A stretch of DNA of 64,000 nucleotides from Yuukianura sp. NJ FZ-2021 (Eukaryota), in NCBI GenBank assembly GCA_046563655.1, contig CM102284.1, forward strand, positions 6,696,001 to 6,760,000. Reading direction: 5' to 3'. Shown piece after piece: positions 30,001-46,400 of this stretch. The position numbers were made by a program, and so were the translations under genes. Position 1 is the first letter of the stretch. Every line of letters starts with the position of its first letter. The notes beneath the pieces are model-generated. The model was not told the DNA's origin. It searched no databases and was given only the letters and a program-made list of their open reading frames with translations.

Positions 30001-31473
30001 TTTCCAATGGAAAATCTTTTTTCCAATGGAAAATCTATTTTCCAATGGAAAATCTTTTTTCCAACGGAAATCTTTTTTCCAATGGAAAATCTATTTTCCA
30101 ATGGAAAATTTTCTTTCCAATGGAAAATCTTTTTTCCAATGGAAAATCTATTTTCCAATGGAAAATCTATTTTCCAATGGAAAATCTATTTTCCAATGGA
30201 AAATCTATTTTCCAATGGAAAATCTTTTTTCCAATGGAAAATCTTTTTTCCAATGGAAAATCTTTTTTCCAATGGAAAATCTTTTTTCCAATGGAAAATC
30301 TTTTTTCCAATGGAAAATCTATTTTCCAATGGAAAATCTATTTTCCTATGGAAAATCTATTTTCCAATGGAAAATTTTTTTTCCAATGGAAAATCTTTTT
30401 TCCAATGGAAATCTTTTTTCCAATGGAAAATCTATTTTCCAATGGAAAATTTTCTTTCCAATGGAAAATTTTTTTTCCAATGGAAAATCTATTTTCCAAT
30501 GGAAAATCTATTTTCCAATGGAAAATCTATTTTCCAATGGAAAATCTATTTTCCAGTGGAAAATCTATTTTCCAATGGAAAATTTTCTTTCCAATGGAAA
30601 ATGGAAAATCTTTTTTCCAATGGAAAATCTTTTTTCCAATGGAAAATCTTTTTTCCAATGGAAAATCTTTTTTCCAATGGAAAATCTTTTTTCCAATGGA
30701 AAATCTTTTTTCCAATGGAAAATCTTTTTCCAATGGAAAATCTATTTTCCAATGGAAAATCTATTTTCCTATGGAAAATCTATTTTCCAATGGAAAATTT
30801 TTTTTCCAATGGAAAATCTTTTTTCCAATGGAAATCTTTTTTCCAATGGAAAATCTATTTTCCAATGGAAAATTTTCTTTCCAATGGAAAATTTTTTTTC
30901 CAATGGAAAATCTATTTTCCAATGGAAAATTTATTTTCCAATGGAAAATCTTTTTTCCAATGGAAAATCTTTTTTCCAATGGAAAATCTTTTTTCCAATG
31001 GAAAATCTATTTTCCAATGGAAAATCTTTTTTCCAATGGAAAATTTTCTTTCCAATGGAAAATGGAAAATCTTTTTTCCAATGGAAAATCTTTTTTCCAA
31101 TGGAAAATCTTTTTTCCAATGGAAAATCTTTTTTCCAATGGAAATCTTTTTTCCAATGGAAAATCTATTTTCCAATGGAAAATCTATTTTCCTATGGAAA
31201 ATCTATTTTCCAATGGAAAATCTATTTTCCAATGGAAAATTTTCTTTCCAATGGAAAATGGAAAATCTTTTTCCAATGGAAAATCTTTTTTCCAATGGAA
31301 AATCTTTTTTCCAATGGAAAATCTTTTTTCCAATGGAAATCTTTTTTCCAATGGAAAATCTTTTTTCCAATGGAAAATCTATTTTCCAATGGAAAATCTA
31401 TTTTCCTATGGAAAATCTATCTTCCAATGGAAAATGCATTTTTTAATGGAAAATCTTTTTTCCAATGGAAAAT
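1..31473. repeat. 19-bp tandem satellite array (consensus TTTTCCAATGGAAAATCTA), about 1,650 units, running off the window start
   Basis: Directly visible. The core TTTTCCAATGGAAAA is nearly invariant. The 4-nt spacer varies (TCTA, TCTT, TTTA, TTTC, TCCT), with 18-bp deletion variants and ATGGAAA slippage duplications. The array ends abruptly at ...ccaatggaaaat|tacgagg. Confidence 0.99.
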
Positions 31474-31474
31474 T

Positions 31475-31586
31475 ACGAGGTGCTCTTTTCGACGAGGTGC
31501 TCTTTTTTACGAGGTGCTCTTTTTGACGAGGTGCTCTTTTTTTCCAGGTGCTCTTTTTGATGAGGTGCTCTTTTTGACGAGCACTT
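31475..31586. repeat. 17-bp tandem repeat (GACGAGGTGCTCTTTTT) x about 6, ending in a GTGCTC...GAGCAC hairpin
   Basis: Six copies of (g)acgaggtgctcttttt directly follow the last satellite unit. The final copy is followed by the inverted GAGCAC. Confidence 0.93.
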
Positions 31587-31822
31587 AAAAGTAATTAACT
31601 TCTTACAAAACCACTTACGCACTTTCATTTCTTAAGTTTCGGGTCGGAACATTCCAATTAATTGCTTAATTAGCTTAATTAATCAAATTAAATTAAGTAA
31701 ACCCAAACCCAGCCAGAACAAAGTTCTCCCCTTCACTTCAATTGTTACGTTTTTTCAAAATGAACAAAGGATCTAATTTCAGCAATTTTTCAAATTCAAA
31801 AATTTCCCGCTACTACATAAAG

Positions 31823-32106: not shown

Positions 32107-32559
32107 TTTTTTTTTTTGGAGAGTTAATTGACATTAGCATTGAGTTTTATCAACAGGGGTAGGGAATTTCTGGGTTGGGTTGAGGTCCTATGGGATGGGG
32201 CGGTGTCAGATAGTTGGCGAGAAGTTCTGAGGGAAGGACGAAAGGCTTTCTGCTAGAGCTGAACGGGCTAGGGCCCTACCACATATCACAGCTCCAGGCA
32301 AATGACAGGAACAGCATCGTACGCATACCGGCCCACGACCCCCCTCCACAACAGCAACTACTGACCTCTTCACACGCACCCATAACCTCCCAAACTGACC
32401 TATCATCCGAACACCCCATCTGGGCTAGGAAAGTGGAAAAACCATTTCTGGAAAACGACTTTCGTGTCGGCGACGCCGGGACTCGAACCCGCGCCCGTCC
32501 AAGGTGTTAGTAGGATAGAGCCGGAGCTCTAGTCCCCCCGGCTTACAGGCCTTGGACTT
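32107..32559 (-). mobile_element. tRNA-derived SINE with poly(A) tail and 13-bp target-site duplication
   Basis: TATATGACTATAT flanks both sides (32094-32106 and 32560-32572). Poly-T at the left end is poly(A) on the - strand. A B-box GGTTCGAGTCC (32479-32489, -) lies in a T-arm-like hairpin CGGG-TTCGAGT-CCCG near the 5' end. The element is GC-rich relative to its flanks. Confidence 0.85.
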
Positions 32560-32827: not shown

Positions 32828-33565
32828 ATGTCCCTCTGGATCGCAATTTGGATTTGTTTAGGTGAGAGCATTAAGTGAAAGCTAAATTGGAATTTTGAAA
32901 AGATTTAATTTTTAAAAATATTTTTAGTATTTGAAATAAGTGCTGCCAGAATCCTCACCAGTACTGGCAATAGCAATTCAAACACTGAAATACTTCTGCT
33001 ACGAAACAGTCAAGAGCGAAAGGACATTCCAAAACCATTGGCTTCAGCATCAGATCTTCCGCCCACTATCGTCAACATTCCAGTTCCAGGAAAACCGGAG
33101 CTACAGGTCAAACCACCCGTGACCTTTGAAATTGAAAAACCCGGGAAACCGGAAGTGGAGTTCGTGGCGGTACCGGATATCCAATTGGAGCTGACGCCTG
33201 TATCCAAGCCAATTCCGATTCCATCTCCCCCCCAAGTGGAAATTACGCAAGGTCAAGCGCCTTTGTTTCAAGTTCCACTGCTTCCGCAAATTTCTTTCGC
33301 AAATCCTTTCGGTGACCTCTTTGGAAATTTTAAACCACTGGAATGGAAACCGCTGGAATGGAAACCGTGGAAACCCCTCACTGGATTAAGTTTGGCCTGG
33401 TCAGATGAACCACCAAAGCCGTTGTACGCCAAAATCAAAGACTTTTTCAAAAATGTCTGTGGAAAGGTCACAGAGGTCGCACCGGAGTTGGCTCAATACT
33501 TCCCAACAGTACGACTTTTCAAGCCAAAGCTGATCTGGCCATTGGTGTACTCAAAGTCCTTATGA
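32828..33565 (+). CDS. Secreted proline-rich protein of unknown family (223 aa, 2 exons)
   Basis: Exon 1 is 32828-32861 (MSLWIAIWICL, then G|gtgaga). Exon 2 is 32928-33565 (ttttag|TA), in frame with ORF 33038-33565. Splicing yields a signal peptide MSLWIAIWICLVFEISA. Internal repeats are PGKPE x2 and KPLEW x2. AATAAA lies at about 33681. Confidence 0.75.
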
Positions 33566-33867
33566 TGGATTCGCCATTTTAGTTATGAAAGTTGATTTAA
33601 ATTATTTACGTTTTACATATTCTTTTATTATATATTTTTACATAACATTTTGTGTTTTGTTTGGATTGGAACAGTCAAGAAATAAAAGTTAGTGAAAGCA
33701 TTTCAACTTACAAAAGTATGAAAATATTGACAGTTTTTACGAAACTTGTCAAACTAAATAGTTACAGTCCACTGCAACCTGTGCTCGAAACCTTTTAAAT
33801 TTTTACCGGTATTCCAATGTACTCAGACCAAGAAATAAACTAACAGTTAATTAAACATTTGAATTAG

Positions 33868-36800
33868 TTAAACAACAATTAAGTTGAAGATCATCAATGT
33901 CAAGGTCATGGAAAACGCAAAGTTGAGTTGTGCAGCTCCGTCGAATGAAAAGATCTGAATCCGGGATTCTTCCTGTTTGTACGGGTCACTTCCATCGTCG
34001 AAATGCATCGGACATTGGTCACCTTGAGTTAAATTAAACTAATTGATGAATAGTTCATTTAAAAACCTTTGTTAAATTTCTCACGTTCTCGTTCATATTC
34101 CTCCATGACAATTGCCACAGCAGCGGCGTGTGTGTGGTTGTAACTGTCGACGTCTTGCTTGAGGTCACAGAATGGTCCAACTGACAGGGACATTAGGACC
34201 CTGGTCAAATCTGACCTCTGGTACACCCAGCAACGGTAGCGACTAAAGGCATCCAATTCATCATAAGTGATCAAGTACGATTTGAGATTCTCCTTCCAGT
34301 AGCCTATGCATTTCATCTTGTAGTCAGGGTCACCTGAAGGTCAAAGGTCAACTTTTAATTTGTCCTCAAAATATACCAAAACAGAAAAAGAAATAGAAAT
34401 GAAAGCAGAGGAGGATTAGTTGTCCGCAAGCAATTTCCGTACCATACAAGACCAATGTAACCAAAAAACATAATTAAATATACTTTAAATTAATCTAACT
34501 AGAAAAAAAATTGATTAAAACCAAAAAATTGTAGCATTTTGTTCAAAATGCCCGAAATTGCATTAGTGCCAGCACCCAAAACAAAAAGTGCTGTGAATTC
34601 CAACCCGGAATTGACCCGGCACCACAAAAACCCGGTGATTGACCTTTGACCTACTGTAAATGTCAACTGGGCGTCCCAAGTAGTCGACACTGAGGCAGTA
34701 GTCAGCATCAATTTGGATTTCCTTCTGGTCCTTGTCACAGGCCGAGAAGTCGGAAATGTTCGTTTTGCAGTAGACGCCAGGACGTGGTGACTGCGTCACT
34801 CCGCCCAAAATACGCGTTTCAAATTTGACCTCCCCCTTTTGCGTAAAATTAAATTTTCCAGCCACAGGGCAGCGGATCGGTACTGGATTCTTGCCTGCGA
34901 CAATTATTCAGTTCAATCAGTTTCTAATTTTAAAACTAATTGTAAAAATTACAGTCAAAACTCTTAAATTTATCGACGACAATGTGCCAAGTTGCCACTT
35001 TGCCACCAACGTTGCCATCAGGCTTGCAACCAGTGTTGCCACTGGAAACCTGGGAAATATAGCTAGGTTGAACTCCGTATAAAATAAAATTCCAGTAAAC
35101 GTATGCAAAATTTCCAACAATTTGATGTATACGGCCATACGGCGTTGAAGACATGCAAGTTGATTAGTTACTGGAAACGCTAAAAATGTTAACATTTTAG
35201 TAAAAGAGGCCAAGAATTGAAATTTCGAAATTTTGAAATTTTGAAAATTGCTAGAAAATAGACAGTTCTTGGGAAGTTGTTTGTGGTTACTGTAAATGTC
35301 GAGGTTTCTTCCTAAATAATCCTGGCAAATGTTTTCTTCTACATCGATCACAAAGTCCTTCCGATCTGCATCGCAGATTCGAATTGATGAAATGTTCAAT
35401 TTGCAATTGAGTTGTGGCCTGGGAGAGTCCGTGACCCCGTTAAGTATCCTCGTTTCAAAGGGAATGGACGCCTTTTGCGTAAAATTGTAGTAACCACTGA
35501 TTGGACAGGGCAAAAACTGCGGATGTTTGGCTAAATTCATAATTTCAACTTTTCCAAATTAGGAGATTTCAAAATGGTCCAGAATTTTTAGAACTTTGGA
35601 AATGTGAAAGATTGACTTGAAGAATCTTGGAAGGTAAAATATGACAGGGATTTGAAAATTGAACCGAATAGTTTGGCTAATGTATTATGGTAAATTTTGA
35701 AGTTTAAAAGTTTGAAAATTGTAAAGGTCAAAAGGTCAACTTTACCGAGCAAGAGGTCGTACTTCCATTCGTCCTTATTTGGAAATTGAACCCAAGAGCA
35801 TACAGTAGAAAAGTCATCTTTGATCATAGCCAGTCCTTTTCGAAATCGAATGATATTTTGATGTCTCGGAACGAAATCGAAACAAATGTAGTCTTTTTGG
35901 CTGAAAATTTAGCAAAGAAAGTAAATTATGCTTCAAATTTTCAAAATTTTGAAACTTTCAATTTCAAGAAACTATTCTAAAAAGTCTACCATCCATCAAC
36001 AGTGAGGCGTGCCATCAAGTAGCGTGATCCTCTTGTTTCTCTACAAACGTATACTGTTTTTCTCCAGCGTCCTTCATCTGGATACCAAGTTTCCGTAATG
36101 TGAGTAGAATTAATTTCAACATCAGCATCCAAATTGGCAGTATTCACCCATTCTCCGGAAAAACTTTCTGGAAGTTTACATCCTGGAGTGACCACTTCAG
36201 CTTTCACTGAAAATCAAAAACATTGGAATCGTGACGACTAGATTTTTTCAAAATTCTAAAATTTTCCAAAAACTTAAAAATCTTCAAATTTTTCTAGGAT
36301 TTCCAGCATACCTGGTGTAATTCGTAACCTCTCCGGGGCAGACTCTGTTCCTTTGAGTGTATTGCATTCAGCGGTAATTGACGCAGCGATGAACAGGTCA
36401 TCGTCACGATTTCTCAGAAAACAGCGATATTTTTCATCCCGTCGAGATTCTTTCGTATTTGCAACTGCAAAGAAATGATTCTTTCCAACAAACCAAGCGC
36501 CGAGACAGGAGTACTCCACACCTTGAAGCAAAATCAAAGTTTTTTCTTGAAAATTTTGAAATTTTGATGTGAAATTTTTGAAATTTGATTTTCTTACTTG
36601 CATCAAACGTTCCAGTCATGCCCTCACAGAGACGATAAGTGATGTTAAACTTATTATTTGTAATAAGAAATTGTGTTCCAGGAGTTTGACACGACTGGAT
36701 GTAAGCATCCGGATGATTACATTCTCCAGTAAATCTGAACCGATTTTGGTAAGCAAATTGCCAAACTCCTTCCAAACTTGATCGACAGTTGATTGGATTG

Positions 36801-37381
36801 TAAGTTTCAGCAAAGAAAGTAATCAGATTCTGATTAGGATCCAGACTTGAGCAAACTTCATCCACAGTTGGAGGATGGAATCGATTTGGAAAGTTGATGC
36901 ACCCCGCTACAGAAAAAAAAAGTCTAAATTGAATTTTTAAAAAAACTTGAATTAAAATTTGATCTTACTTTCAATTTTTTCGAGAATGTTGATTGTGCGC
37001 ACAATGATTCGGACGCAGTGGTAGCATTTGTCTTGTTCAAAGATGAAAGTATAGTTGACAAGATACTCTTCCCTTTTGGCAATGCATCTTCCACGACCTG
37101 ACATTGTGTCAGCAGTGAACCGGGTAACAGTGTCTATGTTATTCTCTCGAGAGTACCACGCTCCGCGGATCTTCGTTGGAATGTCACATGACATGAACAG
37201 CTCAAAAGAGACTAGAATGCCAAAATTACCAAGGTCAAAGGTCAAATCCAATATTTAAATCTAACCCCCAATAAGCGTAATCTGCCTGGTTTAAATTACT
37301 GCAACCAGTTGAAAAGCACTTACGAAAGATGATACACAGTTGGAAAATGACACTTTTGGTGCTGAAATTCCAGTGATTCAT
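33868..37381 (-). CDS. Cys-rich, probably GPI-anchored cell-surface protein (resembles DUF7042/DUF7043-type uncharacterised invertebrate proteins)
   Basis: Exons with phase-consistent GT-AG sites: 37324-37381, 36969-37211, 36598-36906, 36312-36521, 35990-36206, 35746-35900, then 35291-35530 and/or 34655-34894, then 34085-34333 and 33868-34022. There is an N-terminal hydrophobic signal and repeated Cys-spaced modules (CDIPTKIRGAW, CKLPESFSGEW, CLGAWF, CIGYWKEN, YRCWVY). The C-terminus DGAAQ plus hydrophobic tail resembles a GPI signal. The family name is from memory, not a search. Confidence 0.85.
34655..34894 (-). CDS. Duplicated exon 7B (240 nt, phase 1/1)
   Basis: tcgcag|GCAAGAAT ... TACA|gtaggt. 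Encodes KNPVPIRCPVAGKFNFTQKG...GRPVDIY. Confidence 0.85.
35291..35530 (-). CDS. Duplicated exon 7A (240 nt, phase 1/1), candidate alternative exon
   Basis: atttag|CCAAACAT ... TACA|gtaacc. Its 80 aa align without gaps to exon 7B. Confidence 0.75.
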
Positions 37382-40411: not shown

Positions 40412-41573
40412 ATGTCGATTTCGTACCAACAGTCGGATGTAGAGTTCAAAAGGAAGGCCCAATCGATTGCCTCCAACATTCTCAAAATATCACAGAATGG
40501 TAAATTGCGAATTACTAATTCTATGGATTCTTAAATTTAGTAATTACTAAATTCTTTAAGTCAAAACGATGAATAACATATGCTTTTGTTCTTGATTTCA
40601 ACAGCCTCATCAATCGATCGACTCCTCAGTTCGTCCCACATGGACAACCAGGCGATTGCCCAAATGTAAGAATAAGAACATTCAATTGTTTATGCTGATG
40701 TGACAAAAAGCTAGAAATGACCTCAACCAATTCTTGACCTTCTTCTGTATCACTCTTTTTAGACATAGCATCACAGCATATACACATACTTTGTCCAAGG
40801 ATACTGCGGAAGACCTCAAAGTCCTTGCCAATCTTGCTAGTGACAAACAGGAGAAGCTGGAAAAGGATAAGCTCATGTCAAACTACACTTCTGCGCTAAA
40901 TTCGTTCCAAGAAGTGCAAAAGTGAGTTACTTGATTTGCAGTTTCTGGGCAACAATCTCAACGTTTTTCGTCTTTGTAGATCCAGTGTCAATCGAGAGAA
41001 GCAACAACTTCGAGAGTTTCGCCATGATATGCAAGCCGACATGCAACTGCCACCGCCCCCACAGTCTAATAAATTGAAACAGATGCAGATGCAACAACAA
41101 GATGAACTACATGAACAGCAGTTGGAGGAAATGCGACAGAGGGAAGAAGCGATTCGGCAACTTGAGGCAACGTTGTTTTGCAACTTTTCACATTGATAAT
41201 CAACTTGGAATTTTGTGCTAATTTTACTTTGTGGATTATAGTCGGACATTCTGGATGTGAATCAAATCTTTCGAGATTTGGCTACATTTGTTCACGAGCA
41301 GGGAGACACGATTGATTCCATTGAAGCCCATATTGAGTCCTCGTCGATCCGAGTGTCCGAAGGCGTTCAACAGCTTCAAAAAGCAAGCGGTTACGCTGTA
41401 AGTCTCCAGAATTTTAGCACATATGAGAACCATGCGAATCTAGCTAGTTATGATTGACTAATCAATTGACATAATTTTATTTCCAGACATCCGCTCGAAA
41501 AAAGAAGTTGTGCCTGTTCGGTACTGGAATACTGATCCTCGTAATTTTGATTTTGATTATCTACTACGCCTAA
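40412..41573 (+). CDS. Syx7: Syntaxin-7/12 family Qa-SNARE (245 aa, 6 coding exons)
   Basis: Exons 40412-40499, 40605-40665, 40763-40921, 40980-41166, 41242-41397 and 41487-41573. It has a Habc-like N-terminus, the SNARE motif [41 protein letters not shown], a basic RKKK and a C-terminal transmembrane anchor. Confidence 0.92.
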
Positions 41574-43496
41574 ATAATCAAGATTCACAGCATCCAGGAC
41601 CACTTGATCAATTGCGGTCAGTCGCTTTAAAGACTTTTCGAGAGCCACGATGATCCAATCAAGAAATCCAAAGAACAGCAATGTCCCTTATAGTTTCATT
41701 ATACATAACATTCCGACTTCAAATAATTTTCGATAAACTGTCGCTAAGTAGTGGGTGCTAAACGATCGATATGCCACTCCAAATGTGAAATAGCCGAATT
41801 TAGTTCACTGCAAATCTAAACAAGTTACGGTTTTAGTAGAAATTAATTACTTTAGTTTAACCAAATCTTTCATTTCCCTTTCTGATTTGGATTTAGATTT
41901 ATTTAAAATTCGAAAAACTTAGGAAAAACTAATTTTGATTGAAATTTAAGCTTAGATAAAAGTATAATTCCCTAAATCTAACAACATTTAACAAAGTAAA
42001 TTATAAACCACGTTGCAAAAAACACAAAAGGTTTCACTATTCAATTTATTTCATTGTTAACATTTAATTATTACTGAGACAAGTTTAACTTTGTTTTAAC
42101 GTTTTAATCAGTAAGGACATTTAACTTCTAAAATTTTGTAAAAACGTTTCAGACCGAAGGAAGTTGTCTTGTTCAAACAACAAAAATCACAAGTTTAGTT
42201 TTTGAAAAAATTCTAACAGCAGCGGGTTGAACAGTTTTTTCAGACTATGTTTAGGTAGGCAGTTTTTTAAATTTGACCAAGTCACCACATTTTATCCTGA
42301 ACTAATTTTTAAATACGTTCTGTTTAACAAGATTACCAGACTTTTCAATTTTGAAAATTTTGAAAAACGAAAAGAATCTCAGAATGAAATGGATTGTCAA
42401 GTAGAGAAATTTTGGAAAATTTTGACAATACGGAAAAAGATTGAAAGAGGAGAAAAAATTTACAAAATCGGATGTAATCAGACCTTTGACCTTTTTGAAT
42501 TTTTAAGTTTCGTGACACAATGAGTTATTTTGGGAGTTTCTAGTTAAAATGATTGTTAGTTTTTACCAGTTTTAATTTTAAGGTTAGGTTAGTTAGGTTA
42601 ACTAAACTAAAGTTAGGTTGCTAATGTTAGCCTAAATTAATTCTCTTGACTTTTTAGCACATTTCCGACGCTACAGCCGAGTTGACCTCTTGAGGTCAAA
42701 AGGAACAAAGACACACTGCTGCTATATTTACATTTTTTTTTGTCTGTTTGTTCTTAACAGTTTGTTTTAAAAATGCAAAAGTTTTCCAAACTTTCCATTT
42801 TTAAAACAATTTAAAAACTTATTCAAATAGTATAGGTTAGGTTTGTACAGAATCTTAAAATAGGAAGTTAACTACGTTATTCCTGTACAAATTGTACAAA
42901 AACAAACTTATCAAATGTACAAAAACATTTGAGAACCACTTTTTAGTACAAAAGTTGTTTTTTAGAACAAGTTTGACTCAACTTTTTTGAAAACTTGAAA
43001 ACATAAGTAATCCTAATTGCCTTAATTTTTTACCACAAGCTACGACAGCTCAACTACTGAAGCTTGTTTGCAGCTTTTTTCTTATTTTTGCTCGTTTTTA
43101 CTCAAGCATGTCACGGAACAAGGCTTTTTGCACTGCAGGGACGTTTTTAACATTTTAGGCAATCAATTCTTAATTTGCTAAAGCCCTGCAGGAGAGGAGC
43201 ACTTAAACAATTTTTTTGGTTACTTTAGCTTTTTTTTTCTAGAAAAACAGTTTGATATGTTTCAATGAGATTATTTTGAAAATTAACCCCCCGTAGAGAT
43301 TCGTTTTTAGAAAAAGAGAAAGCCACCACTGCTTTTTCGAATTTTCCGTAAGTTTATGTTTTTTGGAGGAAATTGTTATTACTTTAGCGAGCCTAATCAA
43401 TCATTTTTACTACAACTTTATTGCTATTTTTGTGGAGAAAGCTATGCTAAGGTCAGAGAAAGTCACAGGTCATTGAACTTTGGAGAAAACGCGGAG

Positions 43497-46400
43497 TCAG
43501 GTCAAGTAATCCTCTTCGCCATTTTCTTCTTTGATGGTGTAGCAGTCCACTTCGAAGGCTTCACGACCTAAAAGTACACAAATTTTGAAATTTTTGAAGT
43601 TTTTTGAAATTTTTGTTGAAGTGTGCCTGAGATTGAACAAAAACAGGCTTACTGTCAAGTGAAGGTGTACGAACCGGCGCAGCGCGGCCTAACCTTGGTG
43701 GAACTGGAGGTGGCATGGCCGGGGGTGACGATGTTGGCGAAGGCTGTGACGGTCTACGGTCTAACCGCGGTGGAACCGGCGGCGGAGTACTAGCAGGAGT
43801 TGGACTGGTAACTTTTGCTGGTGTTCCAGGACTCTGCGCTTGGCCGTTTTCAACGCCCGAAACGTTTTTGAGCGACGACGGAGCCACGGTTGTTGCCCAT
43901 GAGGGAGAACTTGAGGCCGATCCATTGGAATTTGACTGTGGCGGAGACGCTCCAGCGGAAGAAGCCGTTGAAGTTGACCCACCCGAAATACTGTCCACAC
44001 TTCCACTTTTACTTTTGGGTTTCGGTGGAGGTAGAGGAGCTTGTTTAGACTGTTGCGTCTGCGCAGTACTAGAAGAGGCTTCATCTTGACCGTGACCGTG
44101 TCCGTTAGTCTTTTGTTCAGGTTCTGGATTGTCCAATGGCAACGGCGGTGGAAAGTGTTCTGACGGAGGTGGGCCGTTTCCGGCCTTCTGTGGAAGAACT
44201 GCGGGCAAAGAATACTGATGCATGAGGGGGTGGGGATGCTGCGGAGGTTGTGTTGGCAGTGACGGCAGTCTCCTTCTCTCTCGCTCTTCAATTGAATGTC
44301 GCCGTTCAACATGTCCCGGACCAGGACCCGAAAATCGACGAATCGGAAACGGAGACGGAGGAATCGGTTGGGCCTTGGGGTCACGTGACTTGGTAGCTCC
44401 ACCTTCCGGAAGTGGGTGGGGCTGACGATGGTGCTGTTCCTGGCCTTGACCTTGACGTTCCTGACTTTGACCTTGACGTTGCTCCTCGTGGGAATGGGAC
44501 TGATGACGTTGACGGTATTCCTGACTCTGACTTTGTCGCTGGTCGTCATGACCTTGACCTCTCTCCGGATCAACATAAGCGTAGCGTTGAGGTGGTTCAG
44601 GCTCTTTACGAACTTGATCAAACGGAGTTGCGTACTGCGCTTGCGTCGTCGCAGGCAGCGTTTGCTGTTGCTGAGGCGGTGGTGGGACGACCTCAAAGGC
44701 CGACACACGACTGCGTACTGAAACATTTGTAAAGATATCATTACCGGAGCCACCAGGAGGGGCAGTGGTGGGTGAGTCAGTTAGTTTTGGGGTGGTGGAC
44801 AGTTCAGAAGTGAGGGAGTAGTTGGATGAGGTGGTGGCAGGCGTGATGGACTTGGCAGTGGAGCTGACTGGCGTTAGTGAGTTGGGCGTCGTGACGGACG
44901 TGAGGGAACTCGAGGTCGTGGAGGGCGTGAGCGTCGTGATGGAGCCACCAAGATGGTGGGGCCCGGGCCCACCTTTGAGAGTGGGTGAGGGAGAACTCTC
45001 ACTAAGAGAGCCAGGAGACTGCTTTGAAGGGCTTAAGGGGAGAGTGGGATGCATGAGGTTGGTCAGCGGGGAAAGTTGACCCCCTGACCCCCCCTGAGCT
45101 CTGCTCGAAGTCATCTTCTGGGATTTGGACAAAAGAGCGGAAGCTGGGCTGGAACGGGGGAATGGTCGTCCTTTGCCCAAAAGAATAGGTCCCTTCCGTA
45201 CTGCTCCCGCCGCTCCCGCTTCCCGAACTGTCTGCAACATAGGTGTCACTGCTGACCCAAATCTCACGTAACGATTTTACATTTCACCAAAGTGTGATTT
45301 TTTAAGGAAGAAGAAAGTAGAGAAGTGAAAGGAACACAAAAGCAGTCGTGGTTGATGTTTAACACAAATTTCTACTAATGTAAAAGTGTCACAAATCACA
45401 AAAATCCACACAACTGATACGCTGAGGTGTGCCACACAAATTATAATTTGAAGAAGAGAATTGAGGAAGAAATGGCCTAGAAAATGAGTGTTTTAACCTT
45501 GTTCTAGTAAGTTCGAAATACGTTTACCTGATTTTGCTGGCCAAACTTCCAGGAGATACTGGAGCACTTTGATTGGTGGTTGAAAGTCAAGCGAGTCCGG
45601 TGATTGGTCAAAGTAAATCATTAGAATTGGACCAAAACATGTCGCCAATTGTGTAGGACCCATCTTATTTCTGTCGCTTAATGAACAGACCAGACTCAAA
45701 TGCTCCACGATCATCAGCAGTGTACACTGGAAAATTTCAACAACAAAAAAAATCAAAACTTTCAAAAAAGTTTTTAAAAGTGTTGAATTTTTTAAAACTT
45801 TCTAGCCATTCACTAGAAAACCGCCACAACCTAAATTTTGGAGTAGAATTTTTCCTTGTTTGAACAGCTAGATCAAAAACTTGGTTCGCCGCTAGTTTTA
45901 ATTTTCAAAATTTCAAAATTTGAAAAAAAAATTGAAAAAATTCTTACCCTATTAGGTTTTGGTAGACATTCGATAATGGAAAAAAGTAGTCTAGCATTTC
46001 CTTCTGGATCGTCCGGTAGACATACACTCAGAGCATCCACAAGCATTTGATACAAACACTTGGTTAGCAACGGTTCTGGAAGTTCTCTCAAATAGTCTTT
46101 GAGGACACCTATGAAACCACAAGTACAAAACATAAAAACCAAATCACTTTCTCCTGTTCCTTTTTTCGAACATGTCCAAATAGCACTGCTACCGCAGATT
46201 TCCAGATTCCGTCTTACCAGCAATAACATTTATATCCGGAACATTTTCTGCTGACAAGTCCACTGTTCTTGGACTACGCTCAAAGGCTTCTCTCAAAATT
46301 TGTTTTTTCGTAGCCGATCCACAGAGTCGATAGAGTCCAATTATGTCCAATCCTCTTCGTTCAATTTCTTCTATACATTTTTGCACAAGGAGTGGAACGT

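What the first reader, a model, noticed from the sequence alone, without database searches (positions are those of the whole stretch)
34655..35530. Tandemly duplicated 240-nt exon pair in an uncharacterised Cys-rich surface protein: candidate mutually exclusive exons
Seen: exons 7A (35291-35530) and 7B (34655-34894) are both exactly 240 nt, phase 1/1, with intact AG/GT sites and no stops. They align without gaps at 42/80 aa (hand count). Three Cys are conserved, and the fourth is shifted by two residues rather than lost (7B position 67, 7A position 69), which suggests both copies are still under structural constraint. Known: equal-length, same-phase paralogous adjacent exons are the signature of mutually exclusive splicing (as in Dscam1 and Mhc). 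Inference: the gene swaps one extracellular module to produce two surface isoforms. I do not know of this being described for this family.
Basis: partly seen in the sequence, partly recalled or inferred. Interest (0 to 1): 0.75.

Follow-up and report, generated by a model that had tools for sequence, protein, structure and literature searches.

The report
Alternative exon pair in springtail undicht
Two neighbouring look-alike exons in a springtail-like copy of the septate-junction gene undicht are both kept by selection and most likely used one at a time, as databases already annotate for the same gene in another springtail and in water fleas.

Summary
Exons 35291-35530 (7A) and 34655-34894 (7B), minus strand, are both 240 nt, phase 1/1 and AG/GT-flanked. 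They share 42 of 79 full codons without gaps (E 2e-30).

The gene is not uncharacterised. [quoted passage not shown] Its domain order is DUF7044-DUF7042-DUF7043-DUF7042. Each exon 7 copy encodes the N-terminal half of the second DUF7042, and exon 8 encodes the single C-terminal half.

- 7B is the canonical form, 75-85% identical in 115 single-copy arthropod proteins.
- 7A is a separate conserved type, with 7 springtail sequences in a 100/99 clade.
- Against a relative with saturated synonymous sites, 7A has pN/pS 0.05, as low as the constitutive exons. It is not a pseudo-exon.
- Folsomia candida RefSeq isoforms X1 and X2 (both 643 aa) differ only in this 80-residue segment, 7B-type against 7A-type.
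- Daphnia carinata X1 and X2 do the same at the same position, and two spliced Daphnia contigs carry the alternative exon alone.

Mutually exclusive use is therefore likely (about 0.75) but not shown for this genome, because no RNA data could be reached. I found no cis mechanism that would enforce exclusion, and Daphnia magna X3 contains both exons. This is a new member of a known kind, of moderate interest.

The parts
35291..35530 (-). Exon 7A, the upstream divergent variant. 240 nt, phase 1/1. Encodes the N-terminal half of the second DUF7042 domain.
   Evidence: AG/GT and open frame. Weak DUF7042 match to profile positions 4-44 (E 0.12). 94% identical to L001, 67% to L002 and Allacma, 65% to Folsomia X2. 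pN 0.040 against pS 0.792 versus L001.
34655..34894 (-). Exon 7B, the downstream canonical variant. 240 nt, phase 1/1. Occupies the same domain position as 7A.
   Evidence: AG/GT and open frame. DUF7042 profile positions 2-50, E 1.6e-4. 75-85% identical to the single segment of 115 of 120 arthropod proteins. pN 0.071 against pS 0.716 versus L001.
35531..35745 (-). Intron 6 (215 nt), between exon 6 and 7A.
   Evidence: GT at 35745-35744 and AG at 35532-35531. The acceptor region has the poorest pyrimidine tract of the 9 acceptors in the gene (0.32). Not conserved with L001, L002 or L003.
34895..35290 (-). Intron between 7A and 7B (396 nt).
   Evidence: Far too long for steric exclusion. The donor GTAACC is not U12-like. 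No sequence conservation with L001 or L002.
34334..34654 (-). Intron between 7B and exon 8 (321 nt).
   Evidence: Alignment to the L001 intron is barely above shuffles (z 2.2).
35746..35900 (-). Exon 6 (155 nt), the C-terminal part of DUF7043. It ends in phase 1.
   Evidence: Pfam DUF7043 profile positions 60-103, E 3e-9. Boundaries. 88% identical to L001.
34085..34333 (-). Exon 8 (249 nt), the only C-terminal half of the second DUF7042.
   Evidence: Pfam DUF7042 profile positions 55-112, E 7.8e-9. Boundaries. 98% identical to L001 over 52 codons, 84% to L002.
33868..37381 (-). The whole undicht-like gene. Exons: E1 37324-37381 (ATG, hydrophobic N-terminus), E2 36969-37211, E3 36598-36906, E4 36312-36521, E5 35990-36206, E6, 7A/7B, E8, and E9 33868-34022 (stop, hydrophobic C-terminus).
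   Evidence: Exon reading. Pfam hits for DUF7044, DUF7042, DUF7043 and DUF7042. With either exon 7 the spliced frame is open for 611 aa and 71-76% identical to the Folsomia isoforms over 587 aa.

Best explanation
The window holds the orthologue of undicht (udt) in a springtail-like hexapod. Undicht is a secreted, GPI-anchored, Cys-rich protein that Drosophila needs for septate-junction assembly.

Its seventh coding exon has been tandemly duplicated. Each copy encodes the N-terminal half of the second DUF7042 domain, which is three beta strands and four Cys. The next exon encodes the only C-terminal half. The protein therefore has one structural slot and two alternative fillers.

The pre-mRNA most likely includes either 7A or 7B, giving two 611-aa isoforms. 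They differ in 37 of 79 residues of that half-domain. The differences include four positions fixed differently between the two types across springtails: Y/K at 13, S/D at 48, N/C at 66 with the Cys moved to 68, and L/V at 76.

Shown here:
- the anatomy of the exon pair;
- purifying selection on both copies;
- conservation of both types across springtails;
- annotated either/or isoforms in Folsomia and Daphnia.

Inferred, not shown:
- that this species splices the exons in the same either/or way;
- that the choice is regulated, perhaps by tissue or junction type;
- how double inclusion is avoided. None of the simple cis mechanisms applies, so I infer trans-acting regulation of two weak exons.
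For: 1. Homology and intact exons. 42/79 identities, E 2e-30. AG/GT, 240 nt and phase 1/1 for both.

2. Domain logic. 7A and 7B match DUF7042 profile positions 4-44 and 2-50. Exon 8 matches positions 55-112. The first DUF7042 is split in the same way between E3 (2-57) and E4 (43-122).

3. 7A is not decaying. Against L001, synonymous sites are saturated (pS 0.79) while pN is 0.040. That gives pN/pS 0.051, compared with 0.075 for 345 pooled constitutive codons and 0.100 for 7B. AG and GT are kept at both exons in L001 and L002, and the acceptor AG of 7A is kept in L003.

4. The 7A type is conserved. Seven upstream copies form a clade with support 100/99: window, L001, L002, Folsomia (P0182 is the same peptide as in X2), P0183, Allacma and Orchesella cincta. 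38 of 79 positions are invariant among them, including the shifted Cys.

5. Either/or isoforms in relatives.
- Folsomia candida X1 (P0270) and X2 (P0261), both 643 aa, differ only within residues 425-504. X1 is 86% identical to 7B and X2 is 65% identical to 7A.
- Daphnia carinata X1 and X2, both 621 aa, differ only in the homologous 80 residues.
- Two Logan contigs of 2093 and 2145 nt encode full-length 620/621-aa Daphnia proteins with the alternative exon alone joined to exons 6 and 8. They must be spliced RNA.

6. AlphaFold2 models.
- In Folsomia X2 the 7A-type segment is folded. Most 10-residue blocks score 87-92, and strands lie at 435-445, 467-476 and 483-494.
- In the Orchesella cincta model that holds both copies, the upstream copy (417-493) scores below 50 with no regular structure. 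The downstream copy forms the equivalent three strands.

7. In the window, both variant exons have the weakest pyrimidine tracts of the 9 acceptors (0.32 and 0.45 against 0.55-0.77) and weak donors (4 and 5 of 9 consensus matches).
Against: - No transcript data for this organism could be reached, so none of the junctions 6-7A, 6-7B, 7A-8, 7B-8 or 7A-7B is observed.
- The Folsomia and Daphnia XP_ records are automatic Gnomon models. I could not see their RNA support.
- Daphnia magna isoform X3 (701 aa) contains both exons. Five of the 120 listed gene models (Lepidurus, O. cincta, Artemia, Allacma, Eurycercus) also string both copies together, although these look ab initio.
- Double inclusion and double skipping both keep the frame: 691 aa and 531 aa open. 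Nonsense-mediated decay therefore cannot police the choice.
- The intron between the copies is 396 nt (376 in L001, 171 in L002), so steric exclusion is out. All donors are U2-like.
- No inter-intron pairing exceeded shuffles consistently, and the introns are not conserved.
- The low pLDDT of the upstream copy may only reflect its shallow alignment, with 6 of 94 rows filled.
- The weak-acceptor pattern is not consistent across loci. In L001, 7B scores 0.64. In L002, exon 8 is as weak as both variants.
Confidence: 0.75

Rival explanations
1. The choice is not strictly exclusive. 7A is a regulated cassette placed in front of a mostly constitutive 7B. Transcripts would then be 7B-only, 7A+7B, and perhaps 7A-only. 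The double form would carry an extra, loosely structured 80-residue insert.
For: Daphnia magna X3 (701 aa) holds both exons in frame. Double inclusion is in frame here as well (691 aa). No steric, U12 or NMD mechanism, and no detectable RNA-pairing mechanism, would prevent it.
Against: Folsomia X2, Daphnia carinata X2 and two spliced Daphnia contigs show the alternative exon replacing the canonical one, not added to it. A second N-terminal half-domain has no partner half and is predicted to be disordered (with the alignment-depth caveat). The strong constraint on 7A (38/79 invariant including four Cys; pN/pS 0.05) fits a folded role better than a linker.
Confidence: 0.13
2. Constitutive internal duplication. 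Both exons are always included and the protein simply has an extra half-domain repeat.
For: Gene models of Orchesella cincta (708 aa) and Allacma fusca include both copies, 80 residues apart. The frame is kept.
Against: Those models carry 'hypothetical' or 'unnamed protein product' names and look ab initio. Orchesella dallaii (629 aa) and both Folsomia RefSeq isoforms (643 aa) carry one copy only. No Pfam architecture here shows an N-terminal half of DUF7042 without its C-terminal half. The upstream copy is unstructured in the both-copies model.
Confidence: 0.07
3. 7A is a dead or dying pseudo-exon left by a duplication and never spliced in.
For: 7A diverges from the arthropod consensus (48-58% against 75-85% for 7B). 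In the window it has the weakest acceptor tract and a weak donor.
Against: The frame is open, AG/GT are kept and the length is kept in the window, L001 and L002. pN 0.040 against saturated pS 0.79. Seven springtail sequences form one conserved type. Folsomia X2 uses it.
Confidence: 0.03

Closest known systems
Folsomia candida LOC110853068, RefSeq isoforms X1 (XP_021956989.1) and X2 (XP_035710143.1)
   Same: The same gene, the same exon position and the same two exon types. X1 is 86% identical to 7B and X2 is 65% identical to 7A. The two isoforms are of equal length (643 aa) and differ only within residues 425-504. The shifted Cys of the 7A type is present.
   Different: It is another springtail species. 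Its isoforms are automatic annotations whose read support I could not see. For the window no transcript evidence exists at all.
Daphnia udt-like genes: D. carinata LOC130692253 X1/X2 and D. magna LOC116916250 X1/X3
   Same: A tandem pair at the homologous exon, with the alternative copy upstream. There are equal-length either/or isoforms (621 aa), and spliced contigs carry the alternative exon alone. Upstream copies of branchiopods and springtails group together in the exon tree (92/98).
   Different: The branchiopod alternative exon keeps the canonical Cys spacing. A both-exons model (X3, 701 aa) is annotated. Common origin with the springtail pair is only weakly favoured (AU p 0.03, with a long-branch warning).
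Classical arthropod mutually exclusive exon clusters: Mhc, Dscam1, 14-3-3zeta (recalled; MXE literature seen only as search listings)
   Same: Tandemly duplicated, homologous, same-phase exons that replace one another within one structural unit of the protein.
   Different: Only two variants. No docking or selector pairing was detectable and the introns are not conserved. Double inclusion would stay in frame.
Drosophila Undicht (Udt), GPI-anchored septate-junction assembly factor (Petri et al. 2019, Cell Rep 26:1641; seen only as a citation and in one passage of PMC12822584)
   Same: The same protein family, judged by the names of close relatives and by the DUF7044/7042/7043 domains. It has a hydrophobic N- and C-terminus as expected for a GPI-anchored protein.
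   Different: All 115 single-copy proteins, insects included, show only the 7B type. Whether insect genomes hide a 7A-like exon was not tested. I did not compare directly with the Drosophila sequence.

Membership tests
Mutually exclusive (tandem-duplicated, substituting) exon pair | Adjacent exons that are homologous to each other | tested here: met
   42/79 identities, no gaps, E 2e-30. The exons are separated by one 396-nt intron. There are only two copies in the window.
Mutually exclusive (tandem-duplicated, substituting) exon pair | Same reading phase and compatible length, with intact splice sites on both | tested here: met
   Both are 240 nt, phase 1/1 and AG/GT-flanked. The same holds in L001. 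In L002 the lengths are 240 and 249 nt, still in phase.
Mutually exclusive (tandem-duplicated, substituting) exon pair | Both copies maintained by purifying selection | tested here: met
   pN/pS is 0.051 for 7A and 0.100 for 7B, against 0.075 for the constitutive exons, window versus L001. 38 and 57 of 79 positions are invariant within each type.
Mutually exclusive (tandem-duplicated, substituting) exon pair | Mature transcripts contain exactly one of the exons | tested here: inconclusive
   Not observable for this genome, because no RNA data could be reached. In relatives, Folsomia X1/X2 and Daphnia carinata X1/X2 are either/or, and two spliced Daphnia contigs carry the alternative exon alone. 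Daphnia magna X3, however, has both.
Mutually exclusive (tandem-duplicated, substituting) exon pair | A recognised mechanism of exclusion: steric hindrance, U2/U12 incompatibility, frame-shift with NMD, or competing RNA pairing (the list of mechanisms is recalled) | tested here: not met
   The intron is 396 nt (376 and 171 in relatives). Donors are GTAACC and GTAGGT. Double inclusion stays in frame. Of 9 intron pairs tested, the best duplex was matched by 1 of 20 shuffles, the others by 4 to 20 of 20, with no pair consistent across the 3 loci. RNA pairing is therefore not excluded, only not found.
Undicht (udt) family / DUF7044-DUF7042-DUF7043-DUF7042 proteins | Pfam domains in that order, above the gathering score | tested here: met
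   The cut-off is 27 bits for each family. Scores were DUF7044 60.5; DUF7042 37.6 and 54.0 (first copy); DUF7043 29.3 and 37.6; DUF7042 36.0 (exon 8). The exon 7 pieces alone score below the cut-off, at 12.7 and 22.1 bits.
Undicht (udt) family / DUF7044-DUF7042-DUF7043-DUF7042 proteins | Closest full-length relatives are the proteins that sources name undicht/udt | tested here: met
   5 of the 120 listed hits are named 'protein undicht' or 'protein udt', and the rest are unnamed or 'uncharacterized'. Two further udt names appear among cluster members. The spliced frame is 71-76% identical to Folsomia LOC110853068 over 587 aa. No direct comparison with Drosophila Udt was made.
Undicht (udt) family / DUF7044-DUF7042-DUF7043-DUF7042 proteins | Signal peptide and C-terminal GPI-attachment signal | not tested
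   A hydrophobic stretch after the ATG at 37381 and a hydrophobic C-terminus before the stop near 33870 are visible in the sequence. Homologue models show terminal helices. No signal-peptide or GPI predictor was available.
Dscam1-type docking/selector exon cluster | A conserved intronic docking site complementary to a selector next to each variant exon | tested here: not met
   No conserved intronic block between the window and L001, L002 or L003; the longest exact matches are 9 nt, E at least 0.18. No duplex beyond shuffles is shared by the three loci.

The most novel reading that the evidence does not exclude
The exon 7 pair of undicht arose once, before springtails and branchiopods split, which would make it among the oldest arthropod either/or exon pairs. 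It was then lost in insects, Drosophila included. The two isoforms would give the septate-junction assembly factor two partner specificities, for example for different junction types or tissues. The specificity would be set by the fixed differences at positions 13, 48, 66/68 and 76 of the swapped half-domain.
Probability: 0.25. Interest if true: 0.55.

Novelty: new member of a known kind. Interest (0 to 1): 0.35.

Why it matters
Undicht is one of the few known non-cell-autonomous factors for septate-junction (barrier) assembly, and it has been studied only in Drosophila. Every insect protein seen here shows one exon 7 form.

A conserved second form in springtails and water fleas would mean that the barrier machinery of non-insect pancrustaceans has an isoform switch that the fly model lacks. 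It also points to the N-terminal half of the second DUF7042 domain as the part where binding specificity is tuned.

For annotation, the case shows that several deposited gene models (Orchesella cincta, Allacma, Lepidurus, Artemia, Eurycercus) probably fuse two alternative exons into one over-long protein. As a splicing case it is ordinary in kind. It is unusual only in that none of the simple cis mechanisms of exclusion applies.

Tried and rejected
- **RNA evidence.** The look-up of sequencing runs on 33800-37300, kind rna, listed no RNA holder (none was listed, which does not mean none exists). Read laying could therefore not be used.
- **Own genome and earlier findings.** No genome is held for this window.
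- **Word-index search with 7A alone.** With longer proteins allowed, it found only Allacma, 1 of 6 candidates. The profile of four 7A-type peptides was needed to find Folsomia X2.
- **Exhaustive search with 7A**. 75 proteins had E ≤ 0.001. Only the top three (65-67% identity) are 7A-type, and all three are short genomic reading frames, not transcripts. The library is clustered at 50% identity, so isoforms are hidden.
- **Conserved intronic elements.** Short-word blastn of the three introns against L001, L002 and L003 gave only 7-13-nt matches with E ≥ 0.18. Global alignment scores were z 1.2-2.2 over shuffles.
- **Inter-intron RNA pairing.** The first script timed out. The rerun with 20 shuffles gave z from -1.99 to +1.99 for the 9 pairs and nothing shared between loci. 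The method folds whole introns against each other and is crude, so short selector-like helices could be missed.
- **Splice-site strength as a signature of regulated exons.** It is clear in the window but not consistent in L001 and L002, so I give it little weight.
- **Fold comparison.** The whole Folsomia X2 model against the PDB gave only weak multi-domain matches. The best were transferrin-binding protein B chains, with probability up to 0.72 but TM 0.13-0.16. This is uninformative and I dropped it.
- **Tree-based dating.** The grouping of all upstream copies (92/98) carries a long-branch warning. The AU tests (p 0.031 and 0.030) were framed after the tree had been seen. I treat single origin as only weakly favoured.
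- **dN/dS error.** In one search the exon 5 row and the pooled row were mis-registered by one base and are void. One search gives the corrected values.
- **tRNA and Rfam scans** of 31400-64000 found nothing.
- **Literature.**
  - 'undicht' with 'mutually exclusive': 1 paper, irrelevant.
  - 'undicht' with 'isoform': 8 papers hold both terms and 6 were listed; none concerns udt isoforms, judged from titles and abstract starts.
  - DUF7042, DUF7043 or DUF7044: 0 papers.
  - 'Folsomia candida' with 'mutually exclusive': 24 papers hold both terms and 10 were listed; none concerns this gene, judged from titles.
  - The original Undicht paper is not held. Supplements were not consulted.
Full report
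**1. The observation**

I read the minus strand and printed the splice contexts.

| Exon | Runs from | Preceded by | Followed by |
|---|---|---|---|
| 7A | 35530 down to 35291 | AG | GTAACC |
| 7B | 34894 down to 34655 | AG | GTAGGT |

Both exons are 240 nt. Each begins with two bases that complete a split codon, holds 79 full codons without a stop, and ends with one base of the next codon. That is phase 1 on both sides.

BLASTP of the two peptides gives 42/79 identities, 54/79 positives, no gaps and E 2e-30. Cys residues lie at 8, 42 and 52 in both. The fourth is at 68 in 7A and 66 in 7B. tblastn against the whole window finds no third copy; the next match has E 0.38.

**2. What the gene is**

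The window starts with a 31.5-kb array of a 19-bp satellite (1-31473, 1651 copies). Ordinary gene-bearing DNA of 36-48% G+C follows.

The exons belong to a minus-strand gene that I read:

| Exon | Coordinates | Note |
|---|---|---|
| E1 | 37324-37381 | ATG, hydrophobic start |
| E2 | 36969-37211 | |
| E3 | 36598-36906 | |
| E4 | 36312-36521 | |
| E5 | 35990-36206 | |
| E6 | 35746-35900 | |
| 7A / 7B | 35291-35530 / 34655-34894 | |
| E8 | 34085-34333 | |
| E9 | 33868-34022 | stop, hydrophobic end |

With either exon 7 the spliced frame is open for 611 aa.

Pfam gives this order:
- DUF7044 on E2, 60.5 bits;
- DUF7042 on E3 (profile 2-57) plus E4 (profile 43-122);
- DUF7043 on E5 plus E6;
- a second DUF7042.

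The N-terminal half of that second DUF7042 (profile 2-50) is matched by 7B at E 1.6e-4 and more weakly by 7A (profile 4-44, E 0.12). Its C-terminal half (profile 55-112) is matched by E8.

A search with 7B found 209 proteins at E ≤ 0.001 among 213 candidates. Of the 120 listed, 5 are named 'protein undicht' or 'udt' by their sources, and most of the rest are 'uncharacterized'. Two more udt names appear among cluster members.

Undicht is cited as a GPI-anchored or GPI-linked septate-junction protein of Drosophila (Petri et al. 2019). I saw this only in reference lists and in one passage of PMC12822584. The paper itself is not held. The gene therefore belongs to a named family with a known role in flies.

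The closest relatives of both exon types are springtails: Orchesella, Allacma and Folsomia. The organism is therefore probably a springtail.

**3. The two exon types in other species**

I compared both peptides with the 120 listed proteins.
- 115 hold one matching segment. In all 115 it is 75-85% identical to 7B and only 48-58% identical to 7A. 7B is the canonical arthropod form; even the centipede Strigamia is 75% identical.
- 5 hold two adjacent segments exactly 80 residues apart: Lepidurus, Orchesella cincta, Artemia, Allacma and Eurycercus.
- In the two springtails the upstream segment is nearer to 7A (62% and 67%) and the downstream one nearer to 7B (85% and 81%).

An exhaustive search with 7A returned 75 proteins at E ≤ 0.001. 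The top three (65-67% identity) are short reading frames from genomic contigs. They run from an AG-compatible codon into 'SK', which is the read-through of A|GTAAG.

A scan of metagenome contigs with a profile of four 7A-type peptides matched 472 stretches, of which 3 encode relatives.

| Locus | 7A copy | 7B copy | Other exons held |
|---|---|---|---|
| L001 | 94% identical | 89% identical | exons 2-6 and part of exon 8 |
| L002 | 67% identical | 82% identical; 249 nt because of a 3-codon insert | exons 8 and 9 |
| L003 | first 50 codons, at the contig end | not reached | exons 2-6 |

The AG and GT of both exons are kept in L001 and L002, and the acceptor AG of 7A is kept in L003.

**4. Selection**

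Between the window and L001, synonymous sites are saturated (pS 0.60-0.81 per exon). The introns no longer align.

| Region | pN | pS | pN/pS |
|---|---|---|---|
| 7A | 0.040 | 0.792 | 0.051 |
| 7B | 0.071 | 0.716 | 0.100 |
| 345 pooled codons of E3-E6 and part of E8 | 0.054 | 0.718 | 0.075 |

The exon 5 row and the pooled row were mis-registered and are void.

Among seven springtail 7A-type peptides, 38 of 79 positions are invariant, including all four Cys and the shifted one. Among six 7B-type peptides, 57 of 79 are invariant. Four positions are fixed differently between the types: 13 Y/K, 48 S/D, 66 N/C and 76 L/V. 7A is therefore a maintained coding exon. The pseudo-exon reading is rejected.

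**5. Evidence for either/or use**

- **One slot.** The protein has only one C-terminal half for the second DUF7042. The first DUF7042 shows the same two-exon split.
- **Folsomia candida.** The profile search found LOC110853068 isoform X2. Its cluster mate is isoform X1. Both are 643 aa and differ only within residues 425-504. X1 is 86% identical to 7B and X2 is 65% identical to 7A.
- **Daphnia.** D. carinata X1 and X2 (both 621 aa) differ only in the homologous 80 residues. Two Logan contigs of 2093 and 2145 nt encode full-length 620/621-aa Daphnia proteins. In these, the alternative exon alone sits between exon 6 and exon 8 sequence. An uninterrupted 1.86-kb frame on a 2.1-kb contig must be spliced RNA.
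- **AlphaFold2, Folsomia X2.** The 7A-type segment is folded. Most 10-residue blocks score 87-92, and three strands lie at 435-445, 467-476 and 483-494.
- **AlphaFold2, Orchesella cincta model with both copies.** The downstream copy forms the equivalent three strands. The upstream copy (417-493) scores below 50 and has no regular structure.

The last point is weak. Only 6 of 94 alignment rows cover the upstream copy.

**6. What speaks against strict exclusivity**

- Daphnia magna X3 (701 aa) contains both exons.
- In the window, both double inclusion (691 aa) and double skipping (531 aa) stay in frame. Decay of frame-shifted products therefore cannot enforce the choice.
- The intron between the copies is 396 nt (376 and 171 nt in L001 and L002). 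That is far above what steric hindrance needs.
- The donors are U2-like.
- I found no conserved intronic block and no inter-intron duplex beyond shuffles shared by the three loci. The best of 9 pairs was matched by 1 of 20 shuffles.
- In the window, 7A and 7B have the poorest pyrimidine tracts of the 9 acceptors (0.32 and 0.45 against 0.55-0.77) and weak donors. That would suit regulated exons, but the pattern is not consistent in L001 and L002.

How exclusion is achieved therefore remains open. I infer trans-acting control of two weak exons. The list of known exclusion mechanisms I compare against is recalled. The MXE papers were seen only as a search listing.

**7. Age of the duplication**

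I built a maximum-likelihood tree of 48 exon-7 peptides over 79 columns.
- The seven springtail upstream copies form a clade with support 100/99.
- The downstream springtail copies sit with the insects.
- All upstream copies of springtails and branchiopods group together (92/98). The program warns of long branches at this node.

Forcing all hexapod copies together costs 7.4 log-likelihood units (AU p 0.031). Forcing all springtail copies together costs 7.5 units (AU p 0.030). These groups were named after the tree had been seen.

A single duplication before the springtail-branchiopod split, followed by loss in insects, is weakly favoured but not established. I did not test insect genomes for hidden copies.

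**8. Comparison, novelty and verdict**

In kind, this is a tandem-duplicated substituting exon pair, a well-known class. The same event is already present in automatic RefSeq annotation of Folsomia and Daphnia.

I found no paper that describes it:
- 'undicht' with 'mutually exclusive': 1 irrelevant paper;
- 'undicht' with 'isoform': 8 papers hold both terms and 6 were listed, none on udt isoforms by title or abstract start;
- DUF7042, DUF7043 or DUF7044: 0 papers;
- 'Folsomia candida' with 'mutually exclusive': 24 papers hold both terms and 10 were listed, none on this gene by title.

Supplements were not consulted.

I rate it a new member of a known kind. Either/or use in this genome has probability about 0.75. 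Interest is 0.35. The points of interest are:
- the gene's role in barrier junctions;
- the apparent absence of the second form from insects, where the gene has been studied;
- the probable mis-annotation of several deposited models that contain both exons.

Noticed in passing
window 1-31473: A 31.5-kb tandem array of a 19-bp unit (1651 copies, 93% matches, about 26% G+C) fills the first half of the window and ends about 2.4 kb from the 3' end of the udt-like gene. At 31473-31590 a different short repeat (a unit of about 15-16 bases) follows.
   Followed up: partly
window 32180-32550: A G+C-rich island contains a stretch that, from memory, looks like the reverse complement of a tRNA T-arm, possibly a tRNA-derived SINE. 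ARAGORN and Rfam found nothing there.
   Followed up: partly
window 32909-33565 (+): A 218-codon open frame on the plus strand, rich in Pro with repeated 'PGKPE'-like motifs. It converges on the 3' end of the udt-like gene. Not analysed.
   Followed up: no
window 40700-41700 (+) and 43561-45276 (-): The plus-strand frames at 40700-41700 contain a t-SNARE/syntaxin-like peptide (recognised from memory, not tested). At 43561-45276 on the minus strand there is a 571-codon low-complexity Ser/Pro/Gln-rich frame in a 47-48% G+C island.
   Followed up: no
L002 713-958: In this relative the canonical exon 7B carries a 3-codon insert (249 nt against 240 nt for its 7A). Equal length of the two variants is therefore not strictly conserved, although phase is.
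   Followed up: yes
proteins P0001, P0002, P0003, P0004, P0005, P0124, P0127: Deposited gene models of Lepidurus, Orchesella cincta, Artemia, Allacma, Eurycercus, Daphnia magna X3 and Daphnia galeata string both exon 7 variants into one protein about 80 residues too long. At least some are probably annotation artefacts.
   Followed up: partly
window gene introns: The three introns flanking the variant exons (215, 396 and 321 nt) are two to six times longer than the other six introns of the gene (62, 62, 76, 89, 105 and 112 nt).
   Followed up: no
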